This document shows, piece by piece, positions 29,501 to 64,000 of a stretch of DNA of 64,000 nucleotides. The notes under the pieces were generated by a model. It worked only from the letters and a program-made list of their open reading frames with translations. It was not told the DNA's origin and did not search any database. Location: NCBI GenBank assembly GCA_964583685.1, contig CAZOVJ010000002.1:111333-175332 (forward strand). Reading direction: 5' to 3'. Source of the stretch: an uncultured Gammaproteobacteria bacterium. GTDB lineage: Bacteria; Patescibacteriota; Microgenomatia; UBA8517. The position numbers were made by a program, and so were the translations under genes. The number at the start of each line of letters is the position of its first letter. Positions within the stretch are counted from its first letter, which is position 1.

Positions 29501-30508
29501 GGCATGGGTTGCAACCAATTCTCCGACCCGTCTAAGACGGCGGTTAGCCAGGTGATCTATGTCATCGACTTTCCCTTGACCATTTTGCAGAGAAATCAAG
29601 TAGGATAAGGTGGCGACAATATCTTGTTTTGTTAAAACTCCACTTGACTCATCATTAAGAAGACCCATCTTCAATCTTTTATTTATCTTGTATCGTCCCA
29701 CTCTTCCCAAGTCGTATCTTCTTGGATCAAAAAAAAGAGTATTAACTAGATTTTCTGCATTTTCTAAAACAGCCGGCTCTCCTGGTCTCATCTTTCTATA
29801 AAATTCAAGAAACGCCTCCTCGCGCGTCTTGGTTAAATCCTTTTCTATTGTGCTGGCTATATATCGGTGGCTATTATCTATATCAGCATCGGAGAAAAGT
29901 CTCAAAATCTGGATATCTGAGGCAACCCCCATTATCCTCAAAAATGTCACCGCATTCATTTTTCTTCTTTTGTCTATCCGAACAGCAATAATGTCCTTTC
30001 TATTCACCTCAAACTCAATCCAAGAACCATGTAGGGGTCTTATCTCCGCCTTATAAAGCATTCTGCCGGAAGAAGGATCTAAATCACCTGAAAAATAAAC
30101 TCCAGGGGACCTTACCAGCTGATTGATAACGGCTCTTTCAACTCCCTTGACAACAAATGTTCCTGAAGAGGTCATCTGGGGAATGTTCCCCAGAAAAACT
30201 TCCTGGCTAACCTTCTTGCCCGTCTTTTTATTGATTAAGGTTGCTTTTATCTTGAAGGAAGAAGAAAAGGTCAAACCTTTTTCTCTAGCTGTATCCGGAG
30301 TAATCTGGGGAGGCTCCAGCTTAGGCTCAATCAATTCCAGCTGCCAATTCTTCCCTGTAAAATCCTCAATTGGTAAAATCTTGACCAGCTCTTGCTTGAT
30401 TCCCTTTTCTAAAAACCACTGCCAAGACTCTCTTTGAACTAGAATAAGGTCTAATGGGGGCAGTTTTTTCTCTGTTTTTCCGAAATTGCGTCTTTTAGGT
30501 TGGGCCAT
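23576..30508 (-). CDS. rpoBC: DNA-directed RNA polymerase beta-beta' fusion (RpoB-RpoC in one 2310-aa ORF)
   Basis: The N-terminus is beta-like. The beta C-terminus [27 protein letters not shown]...LAVELGKEG runs in frame through a linker [20 protein letters not shown] into the beta' N-terminus [11 protein letters not shown]...[26 protein letters not shown]...[12 protein letters not shown], and ends with the beta' C-terminus. The junction is at about 27210..27275, with no stop codon. Confidence 0.9.
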
Positions 30509-31918: not shown

Positions 31919-32314
31919 TCAAAAGTGAGAGGTGGTTCTGTCTAGATATTTTTGGAGAATGAGGCTGGCGGAGAAGGCATGTTCAAGTTTCTTTCTCTTC
32001 TTTCTAGAAATACCGGCTTTAATAGCCAAGGCCTGAGCATCTTGAGAACTAAGAGTTTCATCTTCCAAATCAACTTTGAGACCAGTAATCTTGACCAGCT
32101 CTTTGGCAAAAATTTTTGTTTTCTCAGCCATTACTCCTTCCGATATGCCGACAACAATCCTTTCAACTCCCTCTTCAACAACAATCTTCTTTAATTTTGG
32201 AAAAACTTCCTCAACCTTCCTCAGCCTAATAACCCGGAAGGGCTCGGCAATGGCTGAAACTGCCAGAGCCAAACCAATCTTCTTTTCACCATAATCAATG
32301 CCGAGTATGGACAT
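31919..32314 (-). CDS. ruvX: Putative pre-16S rRNA nuclease / Holliday junction resolvase-like YqgF
   Basis: The MSILGIDYGEKKIGLALA N-terminal RNase H-like motif typical of YqgF/RuvX. Confidence 0.75.
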   Translation of the reverse strand: MSILGIDYGEKKIGLALAVSAIAEPFRVIRLRKVEEVFPKLKKIVVEEGVERIVVGISEGVMAEKTKIFAKELVKITGLKVDLEDETLSSQDAQALAIKAGISRKKRKKLEHAFSASLILQKYLDRTTSHF

Positions 32315-32948
32315 GGGCTTCTTCTAAGGGCACTATTCTTGCCCTAATAACCAGCCTTTTGGGCTTCAGGGGATGGCCGGGCGGGACACAAGTTATTAAG
32401 GTTAAAAAAGAATCACTCTGATTCTGCTCTAAAACCTGAATGTTTGTGGTTAGGGCCTCAAAAATGTCCTCAACCCGATATTGATAAGAAATGCCGTCAT
32501 ATTCTACCTCAATCTCATCACCCCTTTTCAGACTGGGCAGAGTAGAAAAAATGGCCAAATAATCCTTGGGGTTGTAAAACTGAGGCAAGATTGAATGGCC
32601 GAAAATAACGGCATTCCCCCGCTTGCCGGGCAGGGCCGTACCCGGGTATTGAATCAGGCTCTGAGACAAATCCTCTCCACCGATGGCCACAGTTGCATTT
32701 TCTATTTTTAGCTTGGGAATGGAAAGAGTATAAAAAGAAATCTTCAGAGAAACAAAATCATTGCTTTCCTTTCCACCAACAAACCAATTGCTGGCCTTTG
32801 TATAGTCTGGCTGGGAGACAGAAGAACTGGCTGTCTTTGTTTCATAGGATAAAATTGGGTAAAGAACGGAAAAGAGAATAACAACACCTGAAACTGCACA
32901 AACGGCAGCTATTATGGTAATGAAAGTTTTGTTTTGCCAGAGATTCAT
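32295..32948 (-). CDS. Sortase family transpeptidase
   Basis: N-terminal membrane anchor; conserved His (AVIFGHS), catalytic TLITC motif and downstream Arg (RLVIRARI). Confidence 0.7.
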   Translation of the reverse strand: MNLWQNKTFITIIAAVCAVSGVVILFSVLYPILSYETKTASSSVSQPDYTKASNWFVGGKESNDFVSLKISFYTLSIPKLKIENATVAIGGEDLSQSLIQYPGTALPGKRGNAVIFGHSILPQFYNPKDYLAIFSTLPSLKRGDEIEVEYDGISYQYRVEDIFEALTTNIQVLEQNQSDSFLTLITCVPPGHPLKPKRLVIRARIVPLEEAHVHTRH

Positions 32949-35107
32949 TCTTCTGCCACTACTTCAATAGATATATTCCTGTTGATTCGGGGTAGAGTTC
33001 TCAGTTTTCCAGGAAGAGATGGCTTCAAACGGATCTCCACCCGAGTGAATCCAGAAATTGTTGAAAGATGATCTTCAGCCAGGGGCAGGTATTTTCCCTT
33101 AATTGCCCTAGTAATCTCCTCCGGCCTTATCTCAGGAAGCAAATTGGCTTTAAAAACTACATCAAGCTGCCAAATTCCGTTCTCACTCTTTTCATTCAGA
33201 TAAAATTCTGCTTCAATCTGCTCTTCCTTTAAAACAAAACCCTCGGCAACCTGGTCCTCCAAAATCCCTTTTGCCAATTTCTGTAAATCTGACCTTAAAA
33301 CAATTAGACCGGCCATGTCTAAAGACATACTCAGCTTAAGGGTGGGTGCCTCATCGCCAAGCTTGTGATTGAAATCCCTGGCTGAGACTGTTTTTTCTAT
33401 TGCCTCTTCGATAAAAATCTTCTCTTCACTTACCTGCTCTCGAATTTGCTTCTTGCCAAGATCAAGTAATTCTTCGCTTAAATCTCTTTCCAAAATATCT
33501 TTATCCTCAGAGGAGACAACGCTAATTTCCCGACTCGACCCACCCAAAAAATCCTCCTCTGCTATCCCGTCGACTTCGCTCTTGGGATAATTAGCCACCT
33601 GAAAGGTTTGTTCTTTCGCCAAGTTGTACTCAGCCCCAATTTCCTCCGCAGTGACGCTGACGCTGGCTGTACCCGGAGAAGAAGGAGAAACTGCGGCCGA
33701 CACTGAAGCTGAACTGTCAAGTGTGAAACTTAGATTGTTTGGTCCTAAAATTTTTGTCTCTGCCGCCAGCCTGATGTTCGAAGATGTTCCATTCTGAATC
33801 AAAACCTTACCCTTGGCCTTTTCCCCCACTCTTTTACTTCCTGTGGTCGAGCGTGTTTTATCGGCTGAAACTGATGTTTCCAAAACATTACCAGGCAAAA
33901 GCCTCTCTTCAAAATTGGCACCATTTACTCTCGGATCAACAAATAAAATTTCTTTTTGCTCAATATTCTTGGGGGCAACATAAATTGTCACCTCTGCTTT
34001 AGGTAAAAACCACCAAGCAGAAAGAGCAAGAATGATAATAGCGACAAAACCTATTCCTCCAAAAACGAAAAATCTTTTACCCGTCATCCCTCTCTGAATA
34101 GAAAAGGGAAAACTCTTCAGCTTTTTTAAAACAACAGAAGACAATGCTTTCTTAAAAAAAGAAGGTTTCTTGACAACAGGGGGAGTAGCCATTGTTTGAT
34201 CCACCTCCCTCCTTTGCTGTTCTTGAGTTATATCCTTACCAACGGTAAATCCCATATCTTCTGGCCCAAGGGCCTGGCTCTCAATCTTTTCCTTCTCTTG
34301 TTCTTTTTTTTCTCCTTCTTCTTCCGGCTCTTGCCTCTTTTCAACCTCAAGAGAGACAACTCCTTCTATCTCTGATGCCCCGGCCAAACAAACACTAAAA
34401 AGCTTACTGTCTGAGTCAATAATTTCCACCTTTGGGGTGTGAAGAAATTGTACCTTTTCTTGCAAATTTCCTGTCCAGTCTGCCGCTATAAGAATCTGCT
34501 TCTCTTCTTCCAGGTCGCCTTCTCTACCATTGTATATCAAAAATCGTGAGGGAAATGGCTCACCGGTTTTAAGCCTAACCAACCCCTCAATAAGATCGTC
34601 TACCACTGAAACGCTTCTTGTCACAGAGGTTGTGCCCACTAAATTTCCCAGTCTATAAACAGCTATATCCAAGAGTTCTTGGCCTAGACCAATAACCACC
34701 GCACTTAAAGGAGAACCTTCTTCTGATTTAATAAAATGAGCAATTGCTTCTGGAAGAACAACAAATCCCACTGGTTCAAGAGAAAGTTTAGAACAAATCC
34801 CTCTTATCTTGTCCAAATATTCTTTTTTTATCTGGCCTTTCAAGACCCATGATGATGAAACTCCAAAAACTGTTTTTGAGGGTTCGGGTGCATCTTCGGG
34901 TAAATCCTGTATTGCTAGCGATAAAGAAGTATCAGCCACATTTGGCAAATCCTCATCTTTCTCCCAACGAGAGGGGGGGCTGGTTGAGTAAACTTTTGCC
35001 TTCTTTGTTTCCTGGTCTATTACCCAAACAGCCGCCTGAATCCAATTAGGCTCGATTAGTAGAGACCAATAATACTCTTGCATAGATTCTCCGAATACCC
35101 GAGGCAA
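32945..35107 (-). CDS. Hypothetical bitopic membrane protein (about 330-aa cytoplasmic N-domain, one TM, about 350-aa extracytoplasmic domain)
   Basis: 720-aa ORF. The N-terminal region (YYWSLLIEPNWIQAAVWVID...) is weakly reminiscent of actin-like FtsA/PilM N-termini. An acidic linker is followed by a TM helix (FFVFGGIGFVAIIILALSAWWFL) and a Ser/Thr-rich C-terminal domain. Confidence 0.5.
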   Translation of the reverse strand: MPRVFGESMQEYYWSLLIEPNWIQAAVWVIDQETKKAKVYSTSPPSRWEKDEDLPNVADTSLSLAIQDLPEDAPEPSKTVFGVSSSWVLKGQIKKEYLDKIRGICSKLSLEPVGFVVLPEAIAHFIKSEEGSPLSAVVIGLGQELLDIAVYRLGNLVGTTSVTRSVSVVDDLIEGLVRLKTGEPFPSRFLIYNGREGDLEEEKQILIAADWTGNLQEKVQFLHTPKVEIIDSDSKLFSVCLAGASEIEGVVSLEVEKRQEPEEEGEKKEQEKEKIESQALGPEDMGFTVGKDITQEQQRREVDQTMATPPVVKKPSFFKKALSSVVLKKLKSFPFSIQRGMTGKRFFVFGGIGFVAIIILALSAWWFLPKAEVTIYVAPKNIEQKEILFVDPRVNGANFEERLLPGNVLETSVSADKTRSTTGSKRVGEKAKGKVLIQNGTSSNIRLAAETKILGPNNLSFTLDSSASVSAAVSPSSPGTASVSVTAEEIGAEYNLAKEQTFQVANYPKSEVDGIAEEDFLGGSSREISVVSSEDKDILERDLSEELLDLGKKQIREQVSEEKIFIEEAIEKTVSARDFNHKLGDEAPTLKLSMSLDMAGLIVLRSDLQKLAKGILEDQVAEGFVLKEEQIEAEFYLNEKSENGIWQLDVVFKANLLPEIRPEEITRAIKGKYLPLAEDHLSTISGFTRVEIRLKPSLPGKLRTLPRINRNISIEVVAEE

Positions 35108-36913: not shown

Positions 36914-37180
36914 TCACTCCTCAGAAAGGGGTGGGGCCTGAATATTTCCCTGCTCTCTGGTTTCAAGCTTTTTCTTTTTCCGAAAAATCTCCAAAATACC
37001 GGTTAGCTTTTCCGGTCTAATCAAGCCACCTCCCAGAATTGCATCCTCAAGTAGACTATTAAATCTCCTTACTGCCCGCCTGAGATCAAAGATAAATAAA
37101 ATCACTTGAATACCTACTACCAGTAGAAGAACAGTCAAACAAATAATAACGATGGTCAAAAGTAACTGAATTCCTGTCAT
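36914..37180 (-). CDS. Small membrane protein, hypothetical
   Basis: 88 aa with one N-terminal TM helix; translationally coupled to the upstream gene. Confidence 0.4.
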   Translation of the reverse strand: MTGIQLLLTIVIICLTVLLLVVGIQVILFIFDLRRAVRRFNSLLEDAILGGGLIRPEKLTGILEIFRKKKKLETREQGNIQAPPLSEE

Positions 37181-37800
37181 AATTGCACATCAATTCTTCG
37201 CTGAATACTTGTTTCTTTCCCCGATCGAGAGATGGCTCTTATCTCAATCTTATCAGTCCCCTTAAAAACCTCAATTTCTGTCACAAATTTTCCATCATCT
37301 TGGACTAAAACCGGTTGATTGTTAACCTTTATGCTAGCCTCAGTATCGGTCTTTCCGCTTACCTTAACTAATCTTTGTTGAATAAGGACATCTTCCTTGG
37401 GTTCATAAACAGTAAGCATTGGCCCAGAAATAAAATGCCAGTATTGAAAACCAAGGTAGCCTAAAATTACGGCCAGAGTAACTACTGCTCCCAGTAAAAA
37501 GGTTAATTTTGGGCTCCAAATAAGCCTTTTTGAAAAATCAGGCTTAGGATTAAGAGAAACTTTTTTGGGAGGATAGTCTCGCCGCAATAAAGCAACAGCT
37601 CGTTTTTCATTCGCTCCAAGAAACTGAGCAATACTTTTAACAAACCCCAAAACTACTGAAAAATCAGGTAGGGCTTGCCAATTTCCCTCTTCTATTGCTT
37701 TAATAAATTCCTCTTTTATTTTTGTCTTATCCTCTAATTTGGCCCGCGAGTATCTTTTTTTAAGACGAGCCTCTTTGAGAACTTCACCTATTGTCTGCAT
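37177..37800 (-). CDS. rodZ: RodZ-like cytoskeleton protein (N-terminal XRE-type HTH plus TM)
   Basis: The HTH IGEVLKEARLKKRYSRAKLEDKTKIKEEFIKAIEEGNWQALP is followed by a TM segment and a C-terminal beta-rich domain. Confidence 0.55.
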   Translation of the reverse strand: MQTIGEVLKEARLKKRYSRAKLEDKTKIKEEFIKAIEEGNWQALPDFSVVLGFVKSIAQFLGANEKRAVALLRRDYPPKKVSLNPKPDFSKRLIWSPKLTFLLGAVVTLAVILGYLGFQYWHFISGPMLTVYEPKEDVLIQQRLVKVSGKTDTEASIKVNNQPVLVQDDGKFVTEIEVFKGTDKIEIRAISRSGKETSIQRRIDVQL

Positions 37801-56133: not shown

Positions 56134-56673
56134 ATGACTGCTCTACAGATTAATCTTTTACCTCAGGAAGAATTTGCCGCCTCCACTTTGGGGAGGATAT
56201 TAACTTGGTTACTTTCAACTTTCCGAATAATAGTAATTGTCACTGAAATGATTGTTATGTCTTCTTTTTTTCTCCGATTTTGGTTCGACGCCAAATTGAC
56301 TGACCTCTCTGAAGAGATTCAACAAAAACAAGCGATAATCAGTTCCTATTCTTCTTTTGAAAAGGATTTCAGGCTTGCCCAAAAAAAACTTAGGATATTC
56401 TCATCATCGACTTCTGACCAGAAAAGCCTAGAACTCTTCCAAGGTCTCATCTCTTGCTTACCGGAAAACATCCAGCTAAATTCCTATTCTGCCAGCCTCA
56501 ACGATTTGCAAATAAAAGCAATGAGTACCAACGAACAATCAATTGCTCAATTTATAGCCAACCTGGAAAACAAAGAACAATTTAAAAATGTTTCTTTGAG
56601 AAACCTTGAAACAAATAAGGACGACCTGTTCATTGGTTTCCTGATCAAAGTTAATCTGAAAGGAGATATATAA
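56134..56673 (+). CDS. pilN: PilN-like type IV pilus assembly protein
   Basis: N-terminal INLLPQEE signature (PilN INLLPWREE), a single TM, and a coiled-coil periplasmic domain. Confidence 0.55.
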   Translation: MTALQINLLPQEEFAASTLGRILTWLLSTFRIIVIVTEMIVMSSFFLRFWFDAKLTDLSEEIQQKQAIISSYSSFEKDFRLAQKKLRIFSSSTSDQKSLELFQGLISCLPENIQLNSYSASLNDLQIKAMSTNEQSIAQFIANLENKEQFKNVSLRNLETNKDDLFIGFLIKVNLKGDI

Positions 56674-57329
56674 TGGCTCTTGGTTGGAAACGAAGATATC
56701 TTCGTTATCAAAAATATTATTTAAATATCCTTGCCCTTTACAAAAAACGCCAGGATTTAAAAATGTTCTTAGAAATTCTTCTTTCTCTGGCCACAATTGC
56801 CTTTTTCGCTGTTTTTGCCTTGAAACCAACCCTCCTGACTATCGCCCAGCTAAAGAGGGAGGTAGATACTAAAAAAGAAACAGTCGTCAAAATGGAACAA
56901 AAAATTCAGAATTTGTCTCGTGCTTCAGCCCTTTTTAATCGAGAAATATCCAGGCTTTCACTGCTCGATACGGCTGTTCCGAGCAATCCTTCTCCCGGCT
57001 TAGAAGTAAGACAAATTGAAGGAATAGCGAAAAAAAATAAAGTAAGCATTTTGGGAATATCTCTAGGAGAAATTACCCTTGTCGGCCAAGAAAAGGAAAA
57101 GTTCAAAGAGAAAAAAGAGTTAAAAGAATTTCCTGAAGGAGCGAAAGCAATAAGTCTCTCGATTAATGTTTCGGGCACATATCCTGATTTGGTTGCCTTT
57201 CTTTCTGATTTAGAAAGCCTGAGAAGGCCATTGCGGATAGATGCAATCTCTTTTAATCTAATTTCCACAGAAGAAAAACAAACAATTGTCTTGACGCTAG
57301 CTGGCCGGGCACCTTATCTTAAGGACTAA
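56673..57329 (+). CDS. PilO-like membrane protein
   Basis: 218 aa; cytoplasmic basic N-terminus, one TM, and a coiled-coil plus alpha/beta C-terminal domain. The start overlaps the pilN stop (ATAATGG coupling). Confidence 0.4.
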   Translation: MALGWKRRYLRYQKYYLNILALYKKRQDLKMFLEILLSLATIAFFAVFALKPTLLTIAQLKREVDTKKETVVKMEQKIQNLSRASALFNREISRLSLLDTAVPSNPSPGLEVRQIEGIAKKNKVSILGISLGEITLVGQEKEKFKEKKELKEFPEGAKAISLSINVSGTYPDLVAFLSDLESLRRPLRIDAISFNLISTEEKQTIVLTLAGRAPYLKD

Positions 57330-57337
57330 ATAGCTTA

Positions 57338-57619
57338 ATGAAAAAACAAAGAGTCAAAACACCAAGTCTAGTTATCATCGCCATCCTGACGGTAATCACC
57401 ATCGCTTTTTGGATAGCATTCAATGTTTTTAGAACCCTGACTATAAAAACACCGTCGTCTGTTCCCCTGGAAATTCTCTCCCCTCTTAATCCCAATCTTG
57501 ACTCACCGGCCCTTAAAGGGCTACAAGAAAGGATACAATTAACAAACACAGAGATCGACAGCATGGAAGCACCGGAAATAAGTTCCTTGGCCAGTCCAGA
57601 AGGAGAAATTAATGAATAA
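57338..57619 (+). CDS. Small membrane-anchored protein (hypothetical, possibly PilP-like accessory)
   Basis: 93 aa, with a basic N-terminus, one TM, and an acidic Ser/Pro-containing tail. Confidence 0.35.
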   Translation: MKKQRVKTPSLVIIAILTVITIAFWIAFNVFRTLTIKTPSSVPLEILSPLNPNLDSPALKGLQERIQLTNTEIDSMEAPEISSLASPEGEINE

Positions 57620-58961
57620 ACTCAAAATGAATAAGCTAAAATTACCAACATTGATTGCTGTTATAGTTCTCACCATGGGGCTGGCAGCCGGCGTTCTTTT
57701 GTTACAAAGTAAACAAATCTTTAAACTCGGGGCCTCTCCTGACATTGCCCCAAAAGATGTCAGGATAACAAATATTACGGACACTTCCTTTACTGTCTCC
57801 TGGACAACAGATAAAAAAACCAGTGGTTTTATTATTTGGGGAAAAACTGAACAATTGGGACAGACAACAATTCCGGAAAACCAAGGATTAAAAAACGTTC
57901 ATTCAATAACCACTAGACAGCTTTCTCTTGAAACAGCTTACTTTTTAAAAATCAATTCCAATGCCAACGAATTTGATAATAGTGGAATTCCCTGGCGGAT
58001 GAAAACCGGTCCCTCTCTTAAAATCCTCTCTGTTCCGGGAATCATTTCCGGCTCTATTTTGACCGCCACTGGACAACCAGCAGCAGAAGTTACTGTTTTT
58101 GTCAGTGCCGGAGGAATCAGCCCTCTGTCGGCAACAACTTCTCAGGATGGCAGTTGGGTAATTCCCTTGTCTAACATCCGCAGTGCGGACCTTTCTTCAT
58201 TTGGGCAGTTAAAACAGGCAAATGTTCTTTTAGAAATCTTTGTTCAAGGAGGCCCGCTGGGAGTTGCTACTGCCAAAATCTTTACCAATTCGGCTAATCC
58301 CACCCCCCATATCATTCTCGGTAAAACACATGATTTTAGAAATGAGCCGGCAAATGAAGCTTCCGAACTGCCCGAGGCCTCAATCAATTTACCAGAAGAA
58401 TCCACGCCCTCTTCTGGCTTTGAAATCCCTGAGGAAATAGCCACACCTTCGGGGGAAACAATCAGTATAGAAAGTATAAGTGAAGGAGAAACTATAAGTT
58501 CCACCGAGCCAGAATTCTTCGGGAAAGGGCCTTCGGGAACCATTATTACTATTACCATCGAATCAGACCCGATCTCCGCTCAAACAACTGTTAATTCTTC
58601 GGGAAATTGGAATTGGAACCCACCAGAAGAACTAGAAGAAGGAACACATCAAATTACTCTTTCTTGGAAAGACAGCAATGATATCTTAAGGACCTTAACC
58701 CGAAACTTCATTGTTCAAGCAGCAGAAGGGCCTGCTTTTGAATCAACACCCTCGGCTGAGCCGACTGCTTCTCCATCTCCTTCTCCAACTCCCTCTGCCA
58801 GCCCTTCAGCCTCTCCCCGTGTAAGCCTACCCTCTACTGAATCAGGAACCCCAATTCCCGGAACCTTGACACCCACTCTAGTCTTGTTTACGATAGGAAC
58901 AGGGCTACTTACTTTGAGTGGAGCACTTGTTTATTTATTGTTGTTTCATAAACAAAATTAA
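57612..58961 (+). CDS. Cell-surface protein with an N-terminal anchor, an FN3-like domain, Ig-like domains, a Ser/Pro-rich linker and a C-terminal hydrophobic anchor
   Basis: The FN3-like signature is DVRITNITDTSFTVSWTTDKKTSGFIIWGKT. The linker is AEPTASPSPSPTPSASPSASP. The C-terminus ...LPSTESGTPIPGTLTPTLVLFTIGTGLLTLSGALVYLLLFHKQN has a sorting-signal-like architecture. Confidence 0.5.
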   Translation: MNKLKMNKLKLPTLIAVIVLTMGLAAGVLLLQSKQIFKLGASPDIAPKDVRITNITDTSFTVSWTTDKKTSGFIIWGKTEQLGQTTIPENQGLKNVHSITTRQLSLETAYFLKINSNANEFDNSGIPWRMKTGPSLKILSVPGIISGSILTATGQPAAEVTVFVSAGGISPLSATTSQDGSWVIPLSNIRSADLSSFGQLKQANVLLEIFVQGGPLGVATAKIFTNSANPTPHIILGKTHDFRNEPANEASELPEASINLPEESTPSSGFEIPEEIATPSGETISIESISEGETISSTEPEFFGKGPSGTIITITIESDPISAQTTVNSSGNWNWNPPEELEEGTHQITLSWKDSNDILRTLTRNFIVQAAEGPAFESTPSAEPTASPSPSPTPSASPSASPRVSLPSTESGTPIPGTLTPTLVLFTIGTGLLTLSGALVYLLLFHKQN

Positions 58962-58986: not shown

Positions 58987-60195
58987 ATGCCAGATCAACC
59001 TGCCCCAAACAAACCAGATAAACCTGTTTCTCAACCTTCTCAGCCCGTTAGTGGCAAGCCGCCAGCTCCAACCCTTCCTCCCCAACCATCAACTCCTGGA
59101 GCTCCCCCTGCACCAATTCCTCCTGGGCCTCCTCCTCCATCTCCTCCTATATCTCCTCTGCCTTCAAAATCAGAGAGTGAAGAACTTCCTCCAATCATTA
59201 GCACTCCAGCCAAAAAGAAATTGGGCAAAGGCAAAATAGTTGCCGCAATTTTGGGAGTTTTGCTTTTGGTTGGCGGCGTTACGGCCGGAGTAATCCTGGT
59301 CCAACAGCGCCAGGAATTAAGAGAAAAGGCAGCATGTACCCCATGCCTAGGAGGGACATGTCCTGATGGATGGTCGTACGGGCCTGATGAATGTTCCTGG
59401 CAACCATGCGACGCTAGGGCGATAGAAGCGTGTAAGGACCATCAAATTACTTCGGACGGTGGCGGTGAAGAACCCAGTGAAGGAGAAGGTCCTTATTGCG
59501 CCATCTGTAGTCCTGCGGACGCATGCGAGTGCGATAAGGGTACTACAACAGGTTATAAATGCAAATTTGCTCCCTCAGAGTGTGCTCATTTAGGCTACAC
59601 CTGGCAACCAGATTCCAGCTGCCCGACTGGTCAATCATGTGGTGACGAGGGAGAGGAAGCTGGTTTTGAATACATTACATTCGAGTGCGATCGGTGCGAA
59701 GGACTAAAATGCCAAACCGAACCGGTAATAGGAGTTAATCCTCGATTCATGCTTGGTAACCATCCCGGACCCTGTAGTCAGGTAGATAGAAGACCGATAG
59801 GCTCCACTGATGGCTGGACCGCTCACGATCTCTGCGATAACGACGATTGGTGTATATCACCAACCGCTACCCCAACCTTACCTCCGGGTATAACCTGTCA
59901 GTGTCGGGAAATCAAGGCCTTTGATACCGGCTGGAATCAGTTAACCTCAGAACAGCTAGGGCAGCTCCAGGCTGGAGATACCGTCTATTTCACTGTTAGC
60001 GGTACTAAAACCTCAGGAATTTTTGACAAGGCGAGGTTTACCATTAATGCCATTCTCAGACCAGAGGTTACCAACAAAAGACCGGGAACTGACGAATTCT
60101 ATGACCAGTATCAAATTACCTCAACCGATATTAGCCGGGGTAGTATCAGTCTGGGAGCCATCATTCATCATCAAGAATTAGATGAATGGTTCTAA
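58987..60195 (+). CDS. Membrane-anchored Cys-rich extracytoplasmic protein with a Pro-rich cytoplasmic N-terminus
   Basis: An approximately 80-aa Pro-rich N-terminus (PAPNKPDKPVSQPSQPVSGKPPAPTLPPQPSTPGAPPAPIPPGPPPPSPP) is followed by a TM and about 27 Cys in CxxC / C-x-C patterns (CTPCLGGTCPDG...CAICSPADACECDKG...CDRCEGLKCQ), with a beta-rich C-terminal domain. Confidence 0.5.
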   Translation: MPDQPAPNKPDKPVSQPSQPVSGKPPAPTLPPQPSTPGAPPAPIPPGPPPPSPPISPLPSKSESEELPPIISTPAKKKLGKGKIVAAILGVLLLVGGVTAGVILVQQRQELREKAACTPCLGGTCPDGWSYGPDECSWQPCDARAIEACKDHQITSDGGGEEPSEGEGPYCAICSPADACECDKGTTTGYKCKFAPSECAHLGYTWQPDSSCPTGQSCGDEGEEAGFEYITFECDRCEGLKCQTEPVIGVNPRFMLGNHPGPCSQVDRRPIGSTDGWTAHDLCDNDDWCISPTATPTLPPGITCQCREIKAFDTGWNQLTSEQLGQLQAGDTVYFTVSGTKTSGIFDKARFTINAILRPEVTNKRPGTDEFYDQYQITSTDISRGSISLGAIIHHQELDEWF

Positions 60196-60673
60196 AAAAA
60201 TGAAAGAATTTTTAAAGAAAAATACAATTACGGTCTTAATTATCATTGCCACCATCGTCTTAGCTGGCATCGCTATGTTTACCGCCTTCAGGCTCTATCA
60301 GCTAAGACAAAAGGCGGTCGCCCCCACTGTACCCGAAAGCAGGCCGGCTGCCGAAGAACTTCCCGCGCCTGTTCCTGATTGCACCCTGACCTTTGCTTTT
60401 GCTGCCACGCCAACTCCCACAGCAACACCGACTGGAAGCCCCAGCCCTACACCGACAGCCACGCCGGCAGAAAGTCCAACACCCACACCAACAGCCACTC
60501 CCACATCCACTCCCTCTCCCAGCCCGACTGTTACACCCAGTCCAGGTGTCATTCCAACCCCCTCACCCACCCCGGCCCCTGAGCTGCCAGAAGCAGGCAT
60601 CAACTTACCAACAATCTGCGGGCTTGGCATTGGCGCCCTTCTCCTCATTATCAGCCTCATCCTAGCCCTCTAG
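60182..60673 (+). CDS. Small surface protein with an N-terminal anchor, a Thr/Pro-rich mucin-like repeat region, and a C-terminal LPEAG + hydrophobic tail
   Basis: TPTPTATPTGSPSPTPTATPAESPTPTPTATPTSTPSPSPTVTPSPGVIPTPSPTPAPELPEAGINLPTICGLGIGALLLIISLILAL. The repeat DNA yields spurious overlapping ORFs in other frames. Confidence 0.5.
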   Translation: MNGSKKMKEFLKKNTITVLIIIATIVLAGIAMFTAFRLYQLRQKAVAPTVPESRPAAEELPAPVPDCTLTFAFAATPTPTATPTGSPSPTPTATPAESPTPTPTATPTSTPSPSPTVTPSPGVIPTPSPTPAPELPEAGINLPTICGLGIGALLLIISLILAL

Positions 60674-60686
60674 GTTCTTTTGTTCC

Positions 60687-63095
60687 TTATCTCCATGAAG
60701 AAAACCAGTAATAAGAATTGTCCAGACTAAGTGGTATTTTCAAGCCTATCCAATGAGGATAAAAATAAAGGAAAATTATTCCTGCAAGGACAAAGAAGGG
60801 AATGGCCAGTCTAGAAAACCTTCTCAGAACATAAGCTGTTACCATTGCCAAAAAGGGCATTGAAGGCAGATAATGATAAAGAAACATTATTCTCGGTGAA
60901 ATTGCCCAGGGAACAAAAAAGGCAAAACAGGAAAAAACAATCAAAGCCAGTTTTTTATTTTTTTCAAAATAGGCATAAATTAGGCAAATGACAATTGCCA
61001 ACACTCCAAACCAAAAAACCAGGGGATTACCCATGGCATAGATATTGGCAACTGCATGCCTGATTGCTCCGCTGGTATAAAGCCAAACCGGCCGAAGCAA
61101 AAAGGGCCAACTCCACCAGGGAGATGTATAAGGATGAGTGGCTTCCAGTTGGGAATGATACCACCACATTTGTTTTTGGAGACCAACGAAAATATCCCAA
61201 CCATGGCCAGTTAAAAAGAGCGGCAGATAACTTGCCAGGTAGACGGCTGCCGGAACAAGCAAAAACCAAAGGTAACCCTTGGTAAATTTTCGTTTAAGAG
61301 AGAAGTGGGAAATTAGCAAAACCGGAATCATCCAGATGACAGTCCATTTGGAAGCAGCAGCCAGACCCAAGGCCATGGCCGAGAAAAGGTTTTCCTTTTT
61401 AAGGAAGAGATAAAGAGAAAGCAGGCTAAAAAACAAAAAATAAATATCGTTCATGGCGATTCTGGACATGCTTAAGACCAGGCCGTCCAAGGCAAAAGCT
61501 CCTGAGGCCAAGAGAGCTAGTAGCCGGTCTTTAAATAGCTCTTTTGTCAGTAAATAAACAAGATAAACCGTGACCACGCCCAGTAAGGCCGCCGGAATCC
61601 TCCAGCCAAAGGCATTTTCGCCAAAAACAAGCATCCCCAAAACCATTGCTTCTTTAGCCAACGGCGGGTGGGTCCATTCATAGGCAAAACCTTTAGGCGG
61701 CGTATTCCACCATTCCCAGACCTTTGGGTCCCCATGAAGCATGCGCCGGGCCGTAAAGGCATGATAAACCTCATCAAAATATTCTTTTTTGGGCTGACCC
61801 AACCAGGCAACTCGGGTTAAAAAGGAGAAAATGAGCAGGCCAATTAGTAAGTTTCGACCCACAACTTGGCTTATGTCTTTCCTCTTCTTTTCCTTCTTAA
61901 ATTTAATTAACTGATTGAATAAAGGTAAAGCAAACCTTTTACTTTTCTTCACCAATATTTCACGGAAGAGAAAAAAGAGAAACCCAAGGTTGAAAAGGAT
62001 AAAAATTTTTAGAACCAAGGGAGAAAAAACGCTCAAAAAATCTTTTGTTATCCAGTTAAAGGAATAATATAAATTAGCAAGATAAATGGCGGAAAAGCCA
62101 AGATAAGGAATCCAAAGACGAGAATTTAAAACTGAAGCAATTGCCAGAAAGGCAAAAGCCGGTAAAAGATGTCTTTCGTGCATCCGGGTAAAAAAGAAAA
62201 AGCTTGAAATAAAAATCATGCTAGCCAGAAAATAGCGACCCCCCTTAACTTTTCTTGAGCACCATAAGACTAATAAAGATAGAGTAAAAGTGATAATCAG
62301 TCCGGCTATCTGTAAACCTAGGTTATCCTTTTGCCAAAAACCAAAAAGCCCCAAAAAATTAAAAGCATTAATAGTCGTATAGGGATATTGATTAAGACCT
62401 GTCTGGATTCTTGACAAGATAAAAACAACTAAATTCTGTTCTCCAGAAAAAGGGACAAATCCCAGGATAAAAATCAAGAAAGCAAAAACTATATAAATAA
62501 AAATCTTTTTTGTTTTCCATTTCTCTTTTAACATAATGAAAAGAACAACTGCTGCCGCCAGTCCTGCCTGGGGTTTAACCAATGTGCCAAAGCTCAAGAA
62601 AAACGCTGAAAGAAAAGGATTGATATCAACTAAGTAAATCGCCAAAAGAGAGAATAGGGCGGTTAAGGAATCTACCTGCCCCCAAAGACTAGAGTTTGCC
62701 AAAATAGCAGGATTAAAAACATAGAAACTGGCCGCAATCAAACCCCACTTTTTGTTTTTAATCTTCCTAACAATCAAGTAGATTAACCAGCCACTGAGAA
62801 TATCAGAAATAATCGCCGGGAATTTATAAAGAATAACGCTAGGTATTGACAGCCAATTACTTAATTTTGCCAAAAAACCAAGTATGTAAAGATAGCCGGG
62901 AAGATAATCGCACCAGCTCTGATAAAACCTGGCAAACCCTACATTGACCAATCTGTTGCTCCAAGCAATAAAAGTGTTTTGGTCAAGCTCCAGTGTTCCA
63001 TGGGGAGAAAGAAAAAATCTGACTATCAAAGCTGTTAAAAGTAGCAGTAAAATAGGGAAGAGTGAAAAAAGCTTTTCCCTTTTTTCAGATTCCAT
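60687..63095 (-). CDS. Large polytopic membrane glycosyltransferase, GT-C fold (PMT/ArnT-like), apparently two GT-C-like modules fused
   Basis: 802 aa with more than 20 TM segments. The C-terminal half carries a PMT/ArnT-type first-loop motif YFDEVYHAFTARRML followed by multi-TM helices. The N-terminal half is a second polytopic module (…FARFYQSWCDYLPGYLYILGF…). Confidence 0.5.
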   Translation of the reverse strand: MESEKREKLFSLFPILLLLLTALIVRFFLSPHGTLELDQNTFIAWSNRLVNVGFARFYQSWCDYLPGYLYILGFLAKLSNWLSIPSVILYKFPAIISDILSGWLIYLIVRKIKNKKWGLIAASFYVFNPAILANSSLWGQVDSLTALFSLLAIYLVDINPFLSAFFLSFGTLVKPQAGLAAAVVLFIMLKEKWKTKKIFIYIVFAFLIFILGFVPFSGEQNLVVFILSRIQTGLNQYPYTTINAFNFLGLFGFWQKDNLGLQIAGLIITFTLSLLVLWCSRKVKGGRYFLASMIFISSFFFFTRMHERHLLPAFAFLAIASVLNSRLWIPYLGFSAIYLANLYYSFNWITKDFLSVFSPLVLKIFILFNLGFLFFLFREILVKKSKRFALPLFNQLIKFKKEKKRKDISQVVGRNLLIGLLIFSFLTRVAWLGQPKKEYFDEVYHAFTARRMLHGDPKVWEWWNTPPKGFAYEWTHPPLAKEAMVLGMLVFGENAFGWRIPAALLGVVTVYLVYLLTKELFKDRLLALLASGAFALDGLVLSMSRIAMNDIYFLFFSLLSLYLFLKKENLFSAMALGLAAASKWTVIWMIPVLLISHFSLKRKFTKGYLWFLLVPAAVYLASYLPLFLTGHGWDIFVGLQKQMWWYHSQLEATHPYTSPWWSWPFLLRPVWLYTSGAIRHAVANIYAMGNPLVFWFGVLAIVICLIYAYFEKNKKLALIVFSCFAFFVPWAISPRIMFLYHYLPSMPFLAMVTAYVLRRFSRLAIPFFVLAGIIFLYFYPHWIGLKIPLSLDNSYYWFSSWR

Positions 63096-63113
63096 TAAAA
63101 GTATTTTACCTTA

Positions 63114-64000
63114 ATGTTAAATCGCAAAGAAAAAAAACTGGCATTTTTTGTCCTCTTTTCGCGCATTTTTCTCTTGCTGGGAATATATCTTTTGAGCATC
63201 TCCATTGTAAATCAGCCACCATCCTTTTCGAAGTTCTTGGAAACTTACGCCAGCCGCTGGGATGGAGACCATTACATTTTTATCTCCCAAAATGGTTATG
63301 TGACAGAATGGCCTGAGGCAAGTTTCATTGTCTTTCTTCCTTTTTACCCACTTACAATTAAAGCTGTAAACTACCTAATTAAAAATCCCCTGATAACCGG
63401 CGTTTTGCTCTCCAATTCATTCTTTATGTTGGCCGCCTTGGCTTTTTACAAACTTCTCAGACTTGACTATTCTCAAAAAATAGCCAGCTTGGCAATTGTC
63501 CTTCTCGCCATCTTTCCCACTTCCTATTTCTTCTCAGCCGCATATCCAGAATCGCTTTTTCTCCTCCTTTTTGCCTTGACATTTTATTTAACAAGAAAGC
63601 ATCTCTTTTTTGTTTCTTCTCTCACGGCCGGCCTTCTCACCCTAACCAAGCCCTTTGGTATACTCATCTGGTTTCCTCTTGTTGTCGAATTTTATCAATC
63701 GAAAAGAAAAAAACTAAAACAGCTTTTCCCATTGCTTCTAGTTCTCGTTTTTTCTAGTTCTCTTTATCTTTTTATAAATTTTTATACCTACAAAGACCCC
63801 TTGGCATTCCAAAAATTTTTAAACAAAAATTGGTACAAATCCTTTGCCTTCCCCTGGCAGGGAATTCTTGAGAGCTGGAAAAGGGGATTCTCAACTCCGG
63901 AATGGGGTAGTTATAAAATTCTCATTGGATTCGCTGAAGCAGTTGCTTCAATAGTCGCTTGGCTCTGTATCCCTTTGGCCTTTCTCAGGAAAACAAAAAT
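63114..64000 (+). CDS. GT-C family membrane mannosyltransferase-like protein (PIG-V/DUF2029-like), partial; continues past the window end
   Basis: ATG at 63114, an open frame to the window end with no stop (checked by hand), and missing from the ORF track. The motif YASRWDGDHYIFISQNGYVTEWPEASFIVFLPFYPL resembles the W-D-x-x-H/Y-Y...GY...AFFPLYP signature of PIG-V-type GT-C mannosyltransferases; multiple TM helices. Confidence 0.5.
   Translation, partial: MLNRKEKKLAFFVLFSRIFLLLGIYLLSISIVNQPPSFSKFLETYASRWDGDHYIFISQNGYVTEWPEASFIVFLPFYPLTIKAVNYLIKNPLITGVLLSNSFFMLAALAFYKLLRLDYSQKIASLAIVLLAIFPTSYFFSAAYPESLFLLLFALTFYLTRKHLFFVSSLTAGLLTLTKPFGILIWFPLVVEFYQSKRKKLKQLFPLLLVLVFSSSLYLFINFYTYKDPLAFQKFLNKNWYKSFAFPWQGILESWKRGFSTPEWGSYKILIGFAEAVASIVAWLCIPLAFLRKTK

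What the first reader, a model, noticed from the sequence alone, without database searches (positions are those of the whole stretch)
60182..60673. Mucin-like TP-repeat surface protein with a C-terminal LPEAG + hydrophobic tail, possibly a sortase or O-glycosylation substrate
Seen in the sequence: an N-terminal signal-anchor is followed by about 70 residues that are almost purely T/P/S/A (TPTPTATPTGSPSPTPTATPAESPTPTPTATPTSTPSPSPTVTPSPGV...). The protein then ends ...PAPELPEAGINLPTICGLGIGALLLIISLILAL.

The LPEAG or NLPTI sequence followed by a hydrophobic segment resembles an LPXTG-type sorting signal. A sortase with an intact TLITC/His/Arg triad is encoded at 32295..32948. However, the basic tail typical of sortase substrates is missing.

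The 449-aa neighbour also ends with a motif, a TM helix and a short basic tail (HKQN). The N-termini of the three surface proteins share the same architecture: a basic stretch, a 20-aa hydrophobic segment, then LxQxRQ-like sequences (LLLQSKQ, LVQQRQELREKA, LYQLRQKA).
Basis: partly seen in the sequence, partly recalled or inferred. Interest (0 to 1): 0.5.

Follow-up and report, generated by a model that had tools for sequence, protein, structure and literature searches.

The report
Tail-less sortase-like anchor on CPR stalk protein
This small gene encodes a membrane-anchored, threonine/proline-rich "stalk" protein of Woesebacteria-type ultra-small bacteria whose C-terminus carries a strongly conserved LPxAG motif plus exactly 24 hydrophobic residues, most likely a previously undescribed, tail-less variant of the signal that sortase enzymes use to fix proteins to the cell wall.

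Summary
ORF 60182..60673 (+; the true start is probably 60200) encodes an N-terminal membrane helix, a disordered linker that is 89% T/P/S/A, then LPEAG and 24 hydrophobic residues ending the protein.

It is not a one-off. It is the last gene of a six-gene operon (pilN-pilO-X1-X2-X3-X4) conserved in about 80 Woesebacteria/Microgenomates loci.

- **Motif in the family.** It reads [LIV]-P-x-[A/S]-G, with P and G invariant, position 3 free, exactly 24 residues to the C-terminus in about 95% of members, and essentially never a K/R.
- **Modular signal.** A 32-residue C-terminal profile finds 270 protein clusters, nearly all matching at the very C-terminus. They have different N-termini and passenger domains (cohesin, cytochrome b5, CARDB, PKD).
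- **449-aa neighbour (X2).** Its orthologues end in LPx[T/S/A]G-x3-PT, a membrane helix and a K/R tail, which is a canonical sortase signal.
- **Sortase.** A catalytically intact sortase lies about 27 kb away, and its orthologues share contigs with X4 orthologues.
- **Glycosylation genes.** A GT39 protein O-mannosyltransferase and an LCP gene converge on X4 in most genomes.

Best reading: a glycosylated stalk protein with a variant sortase signal. Cleavage and glycosylation are inferred, not shown. No Pfam or NCBIfam model covers it. I rate it a new variant of a known kind, of moderate interest.

The parts
60182..60673 (+). X4 gene: 163-aa stalk protein (the finding). The likely true start is the ATG at 60200.
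   Evidence: ORF and translation. 182 database relatives. 81 orthologues found in 83 loci. Orthologues begin MKxF....
60227..60289 (+). N-terminal hydrophobic segment (residues 16-36), with a conserved AT..LAG.A.FTA pattern. Probably an uncleaved signal-anchor.
   Evidence: Hydropathy. Predicted helix 3-43. Conservation. The residue before VAPT is A/S/P and position -3 is Q, so it is not an AxA signal-peptidase site (inference).
60290..60346 (+). Conserved juxtamembrane module RLYQLRQ-x-VAPT(A/V)PESxP.
   Evidence: Nearly invariant columns in alignment A2. Used as the search pattern that recovered 75 genomic loci.
60377..60400 (+). Conserved short segment (D)C-T-x-L-T-F-x-F. It corresponds to the first strand of the Ig-like domain present in longer paralogues and in X3.
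   Evidence: Alignment of short homologues. X3 C-terminal domain model. The correspondence itself is inferred.
60404..60574 (+). T/P/S/A-rich disordered linker (57 aa, 89% TPSA). Candidate O-glycosylation region.
   Evidence: Composition. pLDDT 50-58. Median TPSA fraction of 0.72 in the 50 aa before the motif across 82 orthologues.
60584..60598 (+). LPEAG pentapeptide: the sortase-type motif. The family consensus is [LIV]P-x-[A/S]-G.
   Evidence: P and G are invariant. Position 4 is A78/S20/V4/T3 of 105 relatives.
60599..60670 (+). 24-residue hydrophobic C-terminal segment (x3-PT, a Gly-rich helix, ...LLAL) with no charged tail.
   Evidence: The distance from G to the C-terminus is exactly 24 aa in 95/105 database relatives and 79/82 genomic orthologues. 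K/R appears in 1/105. Predicted helix 142-162.
57612..58961 (+). X2: 449-aa fn3 / CarboxypepD_reg / Big_13 surface protein. It has an internal ELPEASINLPEE (58365..58400) and a divergent C-terminal signal: TPIPG-TLT-PT, a helix and HKQN (58848..58958).
   Evidence: Pfam. Orthologue C-termini read LPx[T/S/A]G-x3-PT, a helix, then K/R.... Coordinates.
58987..60195 (+). X3: 402-aa Cys-rich protein with the same type of N-terminal anchor and a C-terminal Ig-like beta-sandwich. It is a paralogue of X4.
57338..57619 (+). X1: 93-aa bitopic protein, conserved in the operon.
   Evidence: Present in 72 of 83 loci.
56134..57329 (+). pilN (56134..56673) and pilO (56673..57329), the first genes of the conserved operon.
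   Evidence: PF05137 at 1.8e-11. PF04350 / T2SSM_b are weak, just under the Pfam gathering cut-offs. Synteny.
60687..63095 (-). Convergent 802-aa GT39-type protein O-mannosyltransferase (PMT, PMT_2, PMT_4TMC), with FDEVYH at residue 440 (61761..61778).
   Evidence: A PMT homologue lies within 1.5 kb downstream of X4 in 49 of 66 loci.
63114..64000 (+). Partial second GT-C mannosyltransferase (PIG-V/Mannosyl_trans2-like). An LCP gene follows just beyond the window end.
   Evidence: The own-contig extension L001 shows a 369-aa GT-C gene followed by LytR_cpsA_psr.
32295..32948 (-). Sortase, the only candidate processing enzyme in the window.
   Evidence: PF04203 at 6.9e-24 and TIGR01076 above its cut-off, but every class-level model below its cut-off. 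His116, Cys187 and Arg202 (numbered from the FGHS, TLITC and VIRAR motifs) are present. Orthologues lie on the same contigs as X4 orthologues.

Best explanation
X4 is the terminal gene of a Woesebacteria/Microgenomates envelope operon, pilN-pilO-X1-X2-X3-X4.

The proposed mechanism is as follows.
1. The protein is inserted by Sec with its N-terminal helix as a membrane anchor that is probably not cleaved (inferred).
2. About 60 disordered T/P-rich residues are exposed outside the membrane. These are plausibly O-mannosylated by the adjacent GT39 enzyme (inferred).
3. The protein is held transiently by a C-terminal helix preceded by LPEAG.
4. The housekeeping sortase encoded 27 kb away recognises LPx[A/S]G, cleaves between position 4 and Gly, and transfers the protein to the peptidoglycan cross-bridge (inferred).

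The result would be a flexible stalk, or a membrane-to-wall tether, associated with the type IV pilus alignment proteins PilN/PilO.

What is shown:
- the anatomy of the protein;
- the strict conservation and modular reuse of the C-terminal signal;
- the canonical sortase signal on the neighbouring X2 orthologues, with the same extended G-x3-PT spacing;
- the co-occurrence of a sortase;
- the conserved gene neighbourhood.

What is inferred: cleavage, wall linkage, glycosylation, and any link to pilus function.
For: 1. **Motif statistics.** 105 of 120 relatives carry [LIVM]P.[ASTV]G. P and G are invariant. Position 3 takes 11 different residues, as the X of LPXTG does. Position 4 is A/S in 98 of 105. 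The same holds in 82 species-level genomic orthologues.
2. **Modularity.** A 32-aa profile finds 270 clusters at E <= 1e-3 in 1.84e9 proteins. In 139 of 141 newly listed hits the motif lies 22-25 residues from the protein's own C-terminus, which the profile cannot know about. N-termini include the X4 type, the X3 type and ordinary Sec signal peptides. Passenger domains include cohesin and cytochrome b5, and CARDB, DUF11 and PKD.
3. **X2 orthologues.** They end in LPx[T21/S19/A8]G-x3-PT, a helix and a K/R-initiated tail. This is a classical tripartite sortase signal with the same G-x3-PT register as X4.
4. **Sortase.** It has an intact His/Cys/Arg triad and an N-terminal anchor. More than 3300 homologues are found. 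One orthologue was confirmed on the same contig record as an X4 orthologue (SRR22746132_2747); three others are inferred from matching contig lengths or names (118,854-nt H43, 89,851 and 323,315 nt).
5. **Weak LPXTG-model similarity.** Relatives' C-termini score 9.9-11.1 bits against TIGR01167 LPXTG_anchor, and no other sorting-signal model scores.
6. **Cross-bridge genes.** FemAB-family genes, which build the usual sortase acceptor, lie within 10 kb.
7. **Glycosylation genes.** A convergent GT39 PMT lies within 1.5 kb in 49 of 66 loci and carries FDEVYH. It is homologous to solved eukaryotic PMTs. A second GT-C mannosyltransferase and an LCP gene are adjacent. In Actinomyces oris, an LCP gene adjacent to gspA glycosylates a small protein that the housekeeping sortase then anchors (PMC6381275).
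Against: - Position 4 is Ala/Ser, not Thr (T in 3 of 105).
- The positively charged tail that defines classical sorting signals (PMC3297441) is absent throughout the family.
- The window protein itself scores nothing against TIGR01167, and its relatives stay below the 15.9-bit cut-off.
- The helix after the motif is unusually conserved (G at +8/+12, ...LLAL end, fixed 24 aa). That is atypical for sortase substrates and suggests specific helix recognition or packing.
- The N-terminal anchor has no recognisable signal-peptidase site. A sortase-processed product would stay tied to the membrane, which is not the classical outcome.
- No sortase gene lies within 10 kb of X4 in any of 83 loci.
- Motif-bearing proteins are not always sortase substrates: two of four candidates in C. 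difficile were not processed (PMC5569036).
- The PMT/LCP neighbourhood sits inside a long block of conserved gene order, so adjacency alone is weak evidence.
Confidence: 0.5

Rival explanations
1. The C-terminus is a permanent, uncleaved membrane anchor. The protein forms a loop with both ends in the membrane. LPx[A/S]G-x3-PT is a conserved juxtamembrane and helix-capping element that docks onto partner proteins such as PilN/PilO, X1-X3 or the protein's own N-terminal helix.
For: - There is no charged tail, and the segment length is fixed at 24 aa.
- The helix has conserved small-residue patterns: G at +8/+10/+12 in the C-terminal helix and AT..LAG.A..TA in the N-terminal helix. These are typical of specific helix-helix packing.
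- X2 has a related internal motif, [LIV]P.A.[LIV].[LIV]P, that is not followed by a helix. The sequence could therefore be a binding element rather than a cleavage site.
- Some motif-bearing proteins are not processed by sortase (PMC5569036).
Against: - The conserved positions are exactly those of a sortase pentapeptide: invariant P and G, a free X and a small or hydroxyl residue at position 4.
- The same extended motif on X2 orthologues includes LPxTG plus a basic tail.
- The module is reused on unrelated passenger domains and with ordinary signal peptides. That fits a sorting signal better than a partner-specific docking helix.
Confidence: 0.27
2. The module is a sorting signal, but for a different and unidentified enzyme. 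Candidates are an exosortase/archaeosortase-like enzyme, a rhombosortase, or a rhomboid-type intramembrane protease. Such an enzyme would release or lipid-anchor the protein.
For: - The fixed length, the conserved Gly-rich helix and the lack of a tail depart from sortase signals.
- A Thr-rich linker preceding the signal also occurs in the archaeal PGF-CTERM S-layer glycoprotein. There is a weak composition-driven hit to TIGR04216 (E = 0.27-0.37).
- The sortase is not genetically linked to X4.
Against: - No PEP, PGF or GlyGly signature is present.
- No NCBIfam sorting-signal model matches.
- All known signals of those systems also carry a basic cluster.
- Pfam/NCBIfam scans of 14 of the window's proteins and the Pfam labels on genes called in the first eight loci showed no such enzyme; the other window ORFs and the other loci were not scanned for one.
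- X2 orthologues with LPxTG point to sortase.
Confidence: 0.15
3. This is not a real gene but a chance ORF in low-complexity DNA.
For: Low-complexity composition, plus an overlapping 120-aa ORF on the opposite strand.
Against: - 182 database relatives were found.
- Orthologues occupy the same operon position in about 80 loci from distinct species.
- Both termini are strongly conserved while the linker varies.
Confidence: 0.01

Closest known systems
LPXTG-type cell wall sorting signals of Gram-positive sortase substrates (TIGR01167). LPXAG variants have been reported among S. aureus sortase A substrates; that detail is from memory, and the literature search on 'LPXAG' + sortase returned three papers I did not read.
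   Same: A C-terminal pentapeptide with invariant Pro and Gly and a free third position, followed by a hydrophobic helix. A sortase with an intact catalytic triad is in the genome. A neighbouring protein family (X2) carries the canonical LPxTG, helix and basic tail.
   Different: Ala/Ser instead of Thr at position 4 as the rule, not the exception. No charged tail at all. A fixed 24-residue distance to the C-terminus. A conserved extension G-x3-PT and a conserved Gly-rich helix. Scores are below the TIGR01167 cut-off. The N-terminus looks like an uncleaved anchor. The sortase fits no curated class (A-F).
Actinomyces oris GspA-LcpA-SrtA pathway (PMC6381275)
   Same: A small surface protein with a sorting signal, encoded next to envelope glycosylation genes including an LCP enzyme. 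It is glycosylated at the membrane and then anchored by the housekeeping sortase.
   Different: No sequence comparison with GspA was made here. In this locus the nearest enzyme is a GT39 O-mannosyltransferase, with LCP one or two genes further on. The gene belongs to a pilN/pilO operon. Nothing has been tested experimentally.
Actinobacterial Pmt (GT39) O-mannosylated secreted proteins. The knowledge of their Thr/Pro/Ala-rich acceptor regions is from memory.
   Same: An exported Thr/Pro-rich disordered segment, plus a GT39 enzyme with the FDE(V)(Y/H) motif and the C-terminal 4-TM module.
   Different: The enzyme here is a double-length 802-aa protein with an extra N-terminal half. The precomputed Pfam hits for the L004 orthologue list weak PMT_2 and GT87 families ahead of PMT, but the window protein's own N-terminal half had no Pfam hit. 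No glycan evidence exists. The organism is a CPR bacterium.
Archaeal PGF-CTERM / bacterial PEP-CTERM and GlyGly-CTERM sorting signals
   Same: A short C-terminal tripartite-like module reused on many passenger domains and preceded by a Thr-rich linker.
   Different: The signature residues differ, there is no basic cluster, no model matches, and no cognate enzyme was seen.

Membership tests
Sortase substrate (LPXTG-type cell wall sorting signal) | Pentapeptide L-P-X-T-G near the C-terminus | tested here: inconclusive
   LPEAG in the window. The family consensus is [LIV]P-x-[A/S]-G with invariant P and G. Thr at position 4 occurs in only 3 of 105 relatives and 4 of 82 orthologues. It is a variant, not the canonical motif.
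Sortase substrate (LPXTG-type cell wall sorting signal) | Hydrophobic membrane-spanning segment after the motif | tested here: met
   Residues 140-163. Hydropathy up to 2.8. Predicted helix 142-162.
Sortase substrate (LPXTG-type cell wall sorting signal) | Positively charged tail at the extreme C-terminus | tested here: not met
   No K/R/H after the motif in the window protein. K/R in 1 of 105 relatives, 0 of 139 profile hits and 1 of 82 orthologues.
Sortase substrate (LPXTG-type cell wall sorting signal) | Score at or above the curated cut-off of TIGR01167 LPXTG_anchor (15.9 bits) | tested here: not met
   No hit for the window C-terminus. Two relatives score 9.9 and 11.1 bits.
Sortase substrate (LPXTG-type cell wall sorting signal) | Cleavable N-terminal Sec signal peptide | tested here: inconclusive
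   A basic n-region and a 21-aa hydrophobic segment are present, but no AxA-type site. The residue before the conserved VAPT is A/S/P and position -3 is Q. No signal-peptide predictor was available.
Sortase substrate (LPXTG-type cell wall sorting signal) | A sortase encoded in the same genome | tested here: met
   32295..32948 (-), PF04203 at 6.9e-24, triad present. One orthologue confirmed on the same contig record as an X4 orthologue; a second inferred from matching contig length and name.
Sortase substrate (LPXTG-type cell wall sorting signal) | Cleavage within the motif and amide linkage to peptidoglycan | not testable with these tools
   Needs biochemistry or proteomics.
Curated sortase classes A-F (for the enzyme at 32295..32948) | Score above the class-specific NCBIfam cut-off | tested here: not met
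   Best scores: class C 48.3 vs 160, SrtD 45.3 vs 140, class E 43.8 vs 160. Only the general TIGR01076 model passes (52 vs 39.35). The best PDB match is a class C sortase at 4e-9.
GT39 Pmt substrates (O-mannosylated exported proteins) | Exported Ser/Thr- and Pro-rich acceptor region | tested here: met
   57 aa with 89% T/P/S/A lying between two membrane segments.
GT39 Pmt substrates (O-mannosylated exported proteins) | A GT39 enzyme with a catalytic acidic motif in the genome | tested here: met
   60687..63095 (-) matches PMT, PMT_2 and PMT_4TMC. FDEVYH at residue 440. Homology to PDB 9i5k and 6p25. Adjacent in 49 of 66 loci. The NCBIfam equivalog cut-off is not reached (57 vs 800).
GT39 Pmt substrates (O-mannosylated exported proteins) | O-linked mannose on Thr/Ser | not testable with these tools
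   Needs glycoproteomics.
Exosortase/archaeosortase/rhombosortase signals (PEP-CTERM, PGF-CTERM, GlyGly-CTERM and others) | Signature motif plus helix plus basic cluster, matching an NCBIfam model | tested here: not met
   No such model matched six C-terminal peptides even at E <= 10. There is no basic cluster.
Type IV (pseudo)pilins (considered because of the pilN/pilO operon) | Prepilin leader ending in Gly, followed by F/M-T-L-x-E | tested here: not met
   The N-terminus is MKEFLKKNTITVLIII..., with no G|FTLxE motif and no Pfam or NCBIfam pilin hit.
RodZ / GltJ (labels suggested by a source annotation and a weak NCBIfam hit) | N-terminal HTH domain (RodZ), or a full-length match (GltJ cut-off 450 bits) | tested here: not met
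   No HTH domain. The GltJ hit scores 23 bits over the Pro-rich region only. A separate HTH_25 RodZ-like gene exists at 37177..37800.

The most novel reading that the evidence does not exclude
The tail-less, fixed-length LPx[A/S]G+24 module would be a CPR-specific sorting system.

- X1-X4 would be the missing wall-spanning part of the type IV pilus machine in these monoderm ultra-small bacteria, in the operon position that pilP/pilQ occupy in diderms.
- X4 would act as a glycosylated tether. Its N-terminus stays in the membrane next to PilN/PilO. Its C-terminus is covalently fixed to peptidoglycan by an unclassified sortase that prefers Ala/Ser at the scissile position.
Probability: 0.15. Interest if true: 0.75.

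Novelty: new variant of a known kind. Interest (0 to 1): 0.5.

Why it matters
CPR/Patescibacteria make up a large share of bacterial diversity, live attached to other cells, and have almost no experimentally characterised envelope proteins.

A conserved, modular C-terminal signal gives a simple sequence handle for listing the surface proteome of Woesebacteria-type organisms. It appears on at least 270 protein clusters here.

If it is a sortase signal, it relaxes two textbook requirements, Thr at position 4 and a charged tail, and it defines the specificity of an unclassified sortase clade. That could also be useful for sortase-based protein ligation.

The tight, species-wide linkage of four anchored surface proteins to pilN/pilO suggests how a type IV pilus machine is connected to the wall in a monoderm CPR cell. 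The neighbouring GT39/GT-C/LCP genes suggest protein O-glycosylation in this group. All of these ideas are directly testable with peptides, recombinant enzyme and metaproteomics.

Tried and rejected
1. **Cys lipidation or a CGP/MYXO-CTERM-like role for Cys146.** Rejected, because the Cys is unique to this protein (1 of 105).
2. **NLPTI as the sortase motif.** Rejected. The L is variable (L32/W21/T11 of 95) and only the PT is conserved.
3. **RodZ (JGI label) and GltJ (NCBIfam, 23 bits).** Both are low-complexity artefacts.
4. **A DNA tandem-repeat origin for the linker.** Only weak 6/12-nt periodicity was found.
5. **A recent duplication explaining ELPEA(S/G)INLP in both X2 and X4.** DNA identity is only 23 of 36. 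The X2 motif is independently conserved. The similarity remains unexplained.
6. **The search for related loci with the 32-aa C-terminal alignment.** The full-length alignment was used instead.
7. **Sortase next to its substrate.** No sortase lies within 10 kb of X4 in 83 loci. The sortase sits in a conserved housekeeping context: AlaRS, a 670-740-aa protein, sortase, RuvX, YceG.
8. **Fold search on the X3 C-terminal domain, hoping for a functional clue.** It returned only a generic Ig/fn3-like sandwich, Z <= 8.
9. **Literature searches** for sortase with CPR, Patescibacteria or Woesebacteria, and for LPXAG. None described this signal or this operon.
10. **Other proteins with the signal in the 64-kb window.** Only X4 and, in divergent form, X2 carry it.
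Full report
**1. What is there**

- It starts with a basic N-terminus and a 21-residue hydrophobic segment (residues 16-36).
- Next comes a conserved juxtamembrane stretch, RLYQLRQKAVAPTVPESRP, and a short conserved segment, DCTLTFAF.
- A 57-residue run follows that is 89% T/P/S/A.
- The protein ends with LPEAG (60584..60598) and 24 hydrophobic residues that run to the stop codon with no charged residue.

AlphaFold2 with a 30-sequence alignment predicts two helices (3-43 and 142-162) and nothing in between, with pLDDT 50-58. Orthologues begin MKxF..., so the real start is probably the ATG at 60200. The linker is compositional low complexity rather than a DNA tandem repeat. The 120-aa ORF on the opposite strand (60298..60660) lies wholly inside X4; I read it as a shadow of the biased codons.

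The window is from a CPR bacterium of the Microgenomates/Woesebacteria type, judging by the source names of homologues.

**2. It is a conserved family in a conserved operon**

A database search returned 182 relatives. Look-ups of six encoding contigs and a scan of species-representative genomes produced 83 loci in total.
- The gene order is murJ(-), S20, pilN, pilO, X1 (70-110 aa), X2 (fn3/Big_13, 236-475 aa), X3 (290-510 aa), X4 (this family). It recurs almost without exception.
- Counts over the 83 loci: X4 81, X3 79, X1 72, PilO 72, PilN 71, X2 66.
- Record titles name Woesebacteria, Microgenomates or Patescibacteria. The many titles reading 'uncultured Gammaproteobacteria' carry the same operon, so I take them to be mislabelled.
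- X3 and X4 are paralogues. They share the N-terminal anchor type and, in some genomes, Cys-rich inserts. Some X4-type N-termini are fused to the X3 C-terminal domain.
- That X3 domain is a confident Ig-like sandwich (pLDDT 96) with only generic structural neighbours.

**3. The C-terminal module is a strongly constrained signal**

Among 120 listed relatives, 105 carry [LIVM]P.[ASTV]G near the end.
- P and G are invariant.
- Position 1 is L in 86.
- Position 3 takes 11 different residues.
- Position 4 is A78/S20/V4/T3.
- The distance from G to the C-terminus is exactly 24 residues in 95.
- 'PT' sits at +4/+5 in 81.
- K or R follows the motif in only one.
- The Cys in the window protein's helix is unique to it.

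The 82 genomic orthologues behave the same way: distance 24 in 79, position 4 A41/S33/T4/V4, and K/R/H in one.

A 32-residue profile of this module was searched against 1.84 billion representative proteins and found 270 clusters at E <= 1e-3.
- In 139 of the 141 newly listed hits the motif lies 22-25 residues from the C-terminus. This is an internal control, because the profile carries no information about protein ends.
- None of those hits has K/R in the last 22 residues.
- Their N-termini are of the X4 type (77), the X3 type, or ordinary Sec signal peptides.
- Their passenger domains include cohesin and cytochrome b5, and CARDB, DUF11 and PKD.
- A partial cohesin/Big_13 protein in locus L007 carries the module too.

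The module is therefore a reusable sorting-type signal, not a peculiarity of one family. No Pfam or NCBIfam model covers it. TIGR01167 (LPXTG_anchor) reaches only 9.9-11.1 bits on relatives against a cut-off of 15.9, and does not hit the window peptide at all.

**4. Link to sortase**

The strongest indirect evidence comes from X2.
- In 48 of 64 orthologues the protein ends in [LVIT]P-x-[T21/S19/A8]-G, then x3-PT, a helix, and a tail that always begins with K or R. Most of the other 16 are close variants of the motif; a few are short forms with no C-terminal signal.
- That is a textbook tripartite sorting signal (PMC3297441). It shares the G-x3-PT register with X4.
- The window's own X2 is a divergent version: TPIPG-TLT-PT...LLFHKQN, preceded by LPSTESG.

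The sortase at 32295..32948 has the N-terminal anchor and the His/Cys/Arg triad.
- It passes only the general sortase model and none of the class models. Its nearest solved relative is a class C enzyme at E = 4e-9.
- It has more than 3300 homologues.
- One orthologue lies on the same contig record as an X4 orthologue, about 12-25 kb apart (SRR22746132_2747). A second case is inferred from a matching contig length and sample name (the 118,854-nt H43 contig). Matching contig lengths of 89,851 and 323,315 nt suggest two more.
- It is not adjacent to its putative substrates. No sortase lies within 10 kb of X4 in 83 loci.
- Its own neighbourhood is a conserved housekeeping block: AlaRS, a 670-740-aa protein, sortase, RuvX, YceG.
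- FemAB-family genes, which build the cross-bridge that usually accepts sortase products, lie a few kb downstream of X4.

**5. Link to glycosylation**

Immediately downstream and convergent is an 802-aa protein that matches PMT, PMT_2 and PMT_4TMC.
- It carries FDEVYH at residue 440 and is homologous to solved eukaryotic protein O-mannosyltransferases.
- A PMT homologue lies within 1.5 kb of X4 in 49 of 66 loci that have enough downstream sequence.
- In the window a second GT-C mannosyltransferase follows (63114..end). Just past the window end, on the same contig, there is an LCP gene.
- Of 55 loci with at least 8 kb downstream, 49 have LCP and 41 have PMT. The usual order is X4(+), PMT(-), LCP(-).
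- In Actinomyces oris, an LCP enzyme encoded next to gspA glycosylates that small surface protein before the housekeeping sortase anchors it (PMC6381275). This is the closest functional precedent.

One caution applies. The whole region from dnaK to femAB keeps its gene order across these genomes, so adjacency alone is weak evidence.

**6. Interpretation**

The most likely reading (about 0.5) is that X4 is a glycosylated, disordered stalk protein whose C-terminal LPx[A/S]G module is a variant sortase signal.
- Because the N-terminal segment has no signal-peptidase-type site (position -1 is A/S/P, position -3 is Q), the mature product may remain anchored in the membrane at one end and be fixed to peptidoglycan at the other.
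- Its constant position after pilN/pilO and three other anchored surface proteins suggests a role in connecting the pilus alignment complex to the wall. That step is pure inference.

Two rivals remain.
- An uncleaved C-terminal anchor whose conserved motif and Gly-rich helix serve protein-protein packing (about 0.27). This is favoured by the missing tail, the fixed length and the unusually conserved helix.
- Processing by a different, unidentified enzyme (about 0.15).

A spurious ORF is excluded.

The related internal motif of X2 remains unexplained. It reads [LIV]P.A.[LIV].[LIV]P at about residue 247, is ELPEASINLPEE in the window, and forms the C-terminus of the short X2 forms.

**7. Novelty and score**

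I found no curated model and no paper in the searchable library that describes this signal, the X1-X4 proteins or their linkage to pilN/pilO.

It resembles a known kind of system, sortase sorting signals, but departs in two defining features across a whole lineage. I therefore rate it a new variant of a known kind, with interest 0.5.

Noticed in passing
window 23576..30508 (-): rpoB and rpoC are read as one 2310-aa ORF (Rpb2 domains at aa 67-1075, Rpb1 domains at aa 1092-2261). In related contigs (L084, L085) they are separate genes. This could be a genuine fusion or an assembly or frameshift artefact.
   Followed up: partly
window 32945..35107 (-): A 720-aa protein with no family assignment (only a weak Baseplate_J hit at 2.3e-4). 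Its stop overlaps the sortase start. The same pairing of a 669-738-aa protein with sortase, RuvX and YceG recurs in L084 and L085, so it may be a sortase partner.
   Followed up: partly
window 58365..58400 (inside X2, 57612..58961): The internal ELPEASINLPEE closely resembles X4's ELPEAGINLPTI. It is conserved as [LIV]P.A.[LIV].[LIV]P at about residue 247 in at least 27 of 64 X2 orthologues, and the short X2 forms end there. DNA identity is only 23 of 36, so this is not a recent copy. The function is unknown.
   Followed up: partly
window 57642..57720, 59236..59334 and 60227..60346; also proteins P0132, P0139, P0144, P0202 and others: A recurrent N-terminal module: a basic stretch, a helix of about 21 aa with conserved small residues, a Gln/Arg-rich juxtamembrane turn, then Ala. 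It is shared by X2, X3, X4 and many other CPR surface proteins and has no obvious signal-peptidase site. It may be a lineage-specific export or anchoring signal.
   Followed up: partly
window 60687..64000, and L001 5196..7401 (just beyond the window end): An envelope-glycosylation cluster converging on the operon: a double-length GT39 PMT, a PIG-V-like GT-C mannosyltransferase, an LCP gene, then UvrD and two FemAB genes. The PMT(-) LCP(-) order is conserved in most Woesebacteria loci.
   Followed up: partly
window 58987..59235 (the N-terminal 83 aa of X3): A long Pro-rich extension before the membrane helix. The JGI gene call for the same contig starts X3 later (324 aa), so the start codon is uncertain.
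   Followed up: no
loci L009-L083 (record titles): About 30 of the 75 GTDB contigs that carry this Woesebacteria-type operon are titled 'uncultured Gammaproteobacteria bacterium'. These are evidently mislabelled MAG records.
   Followed up: no
window 37177..37800 (-): An HTH_25 + Glucodextran_B protein (RodZ-like), encoded next to ftsK. This is probably the real RodZ candidate of this genome, in contrast to the 'RodZ' label that one source gave to X4 relatives.
   Followed up: no
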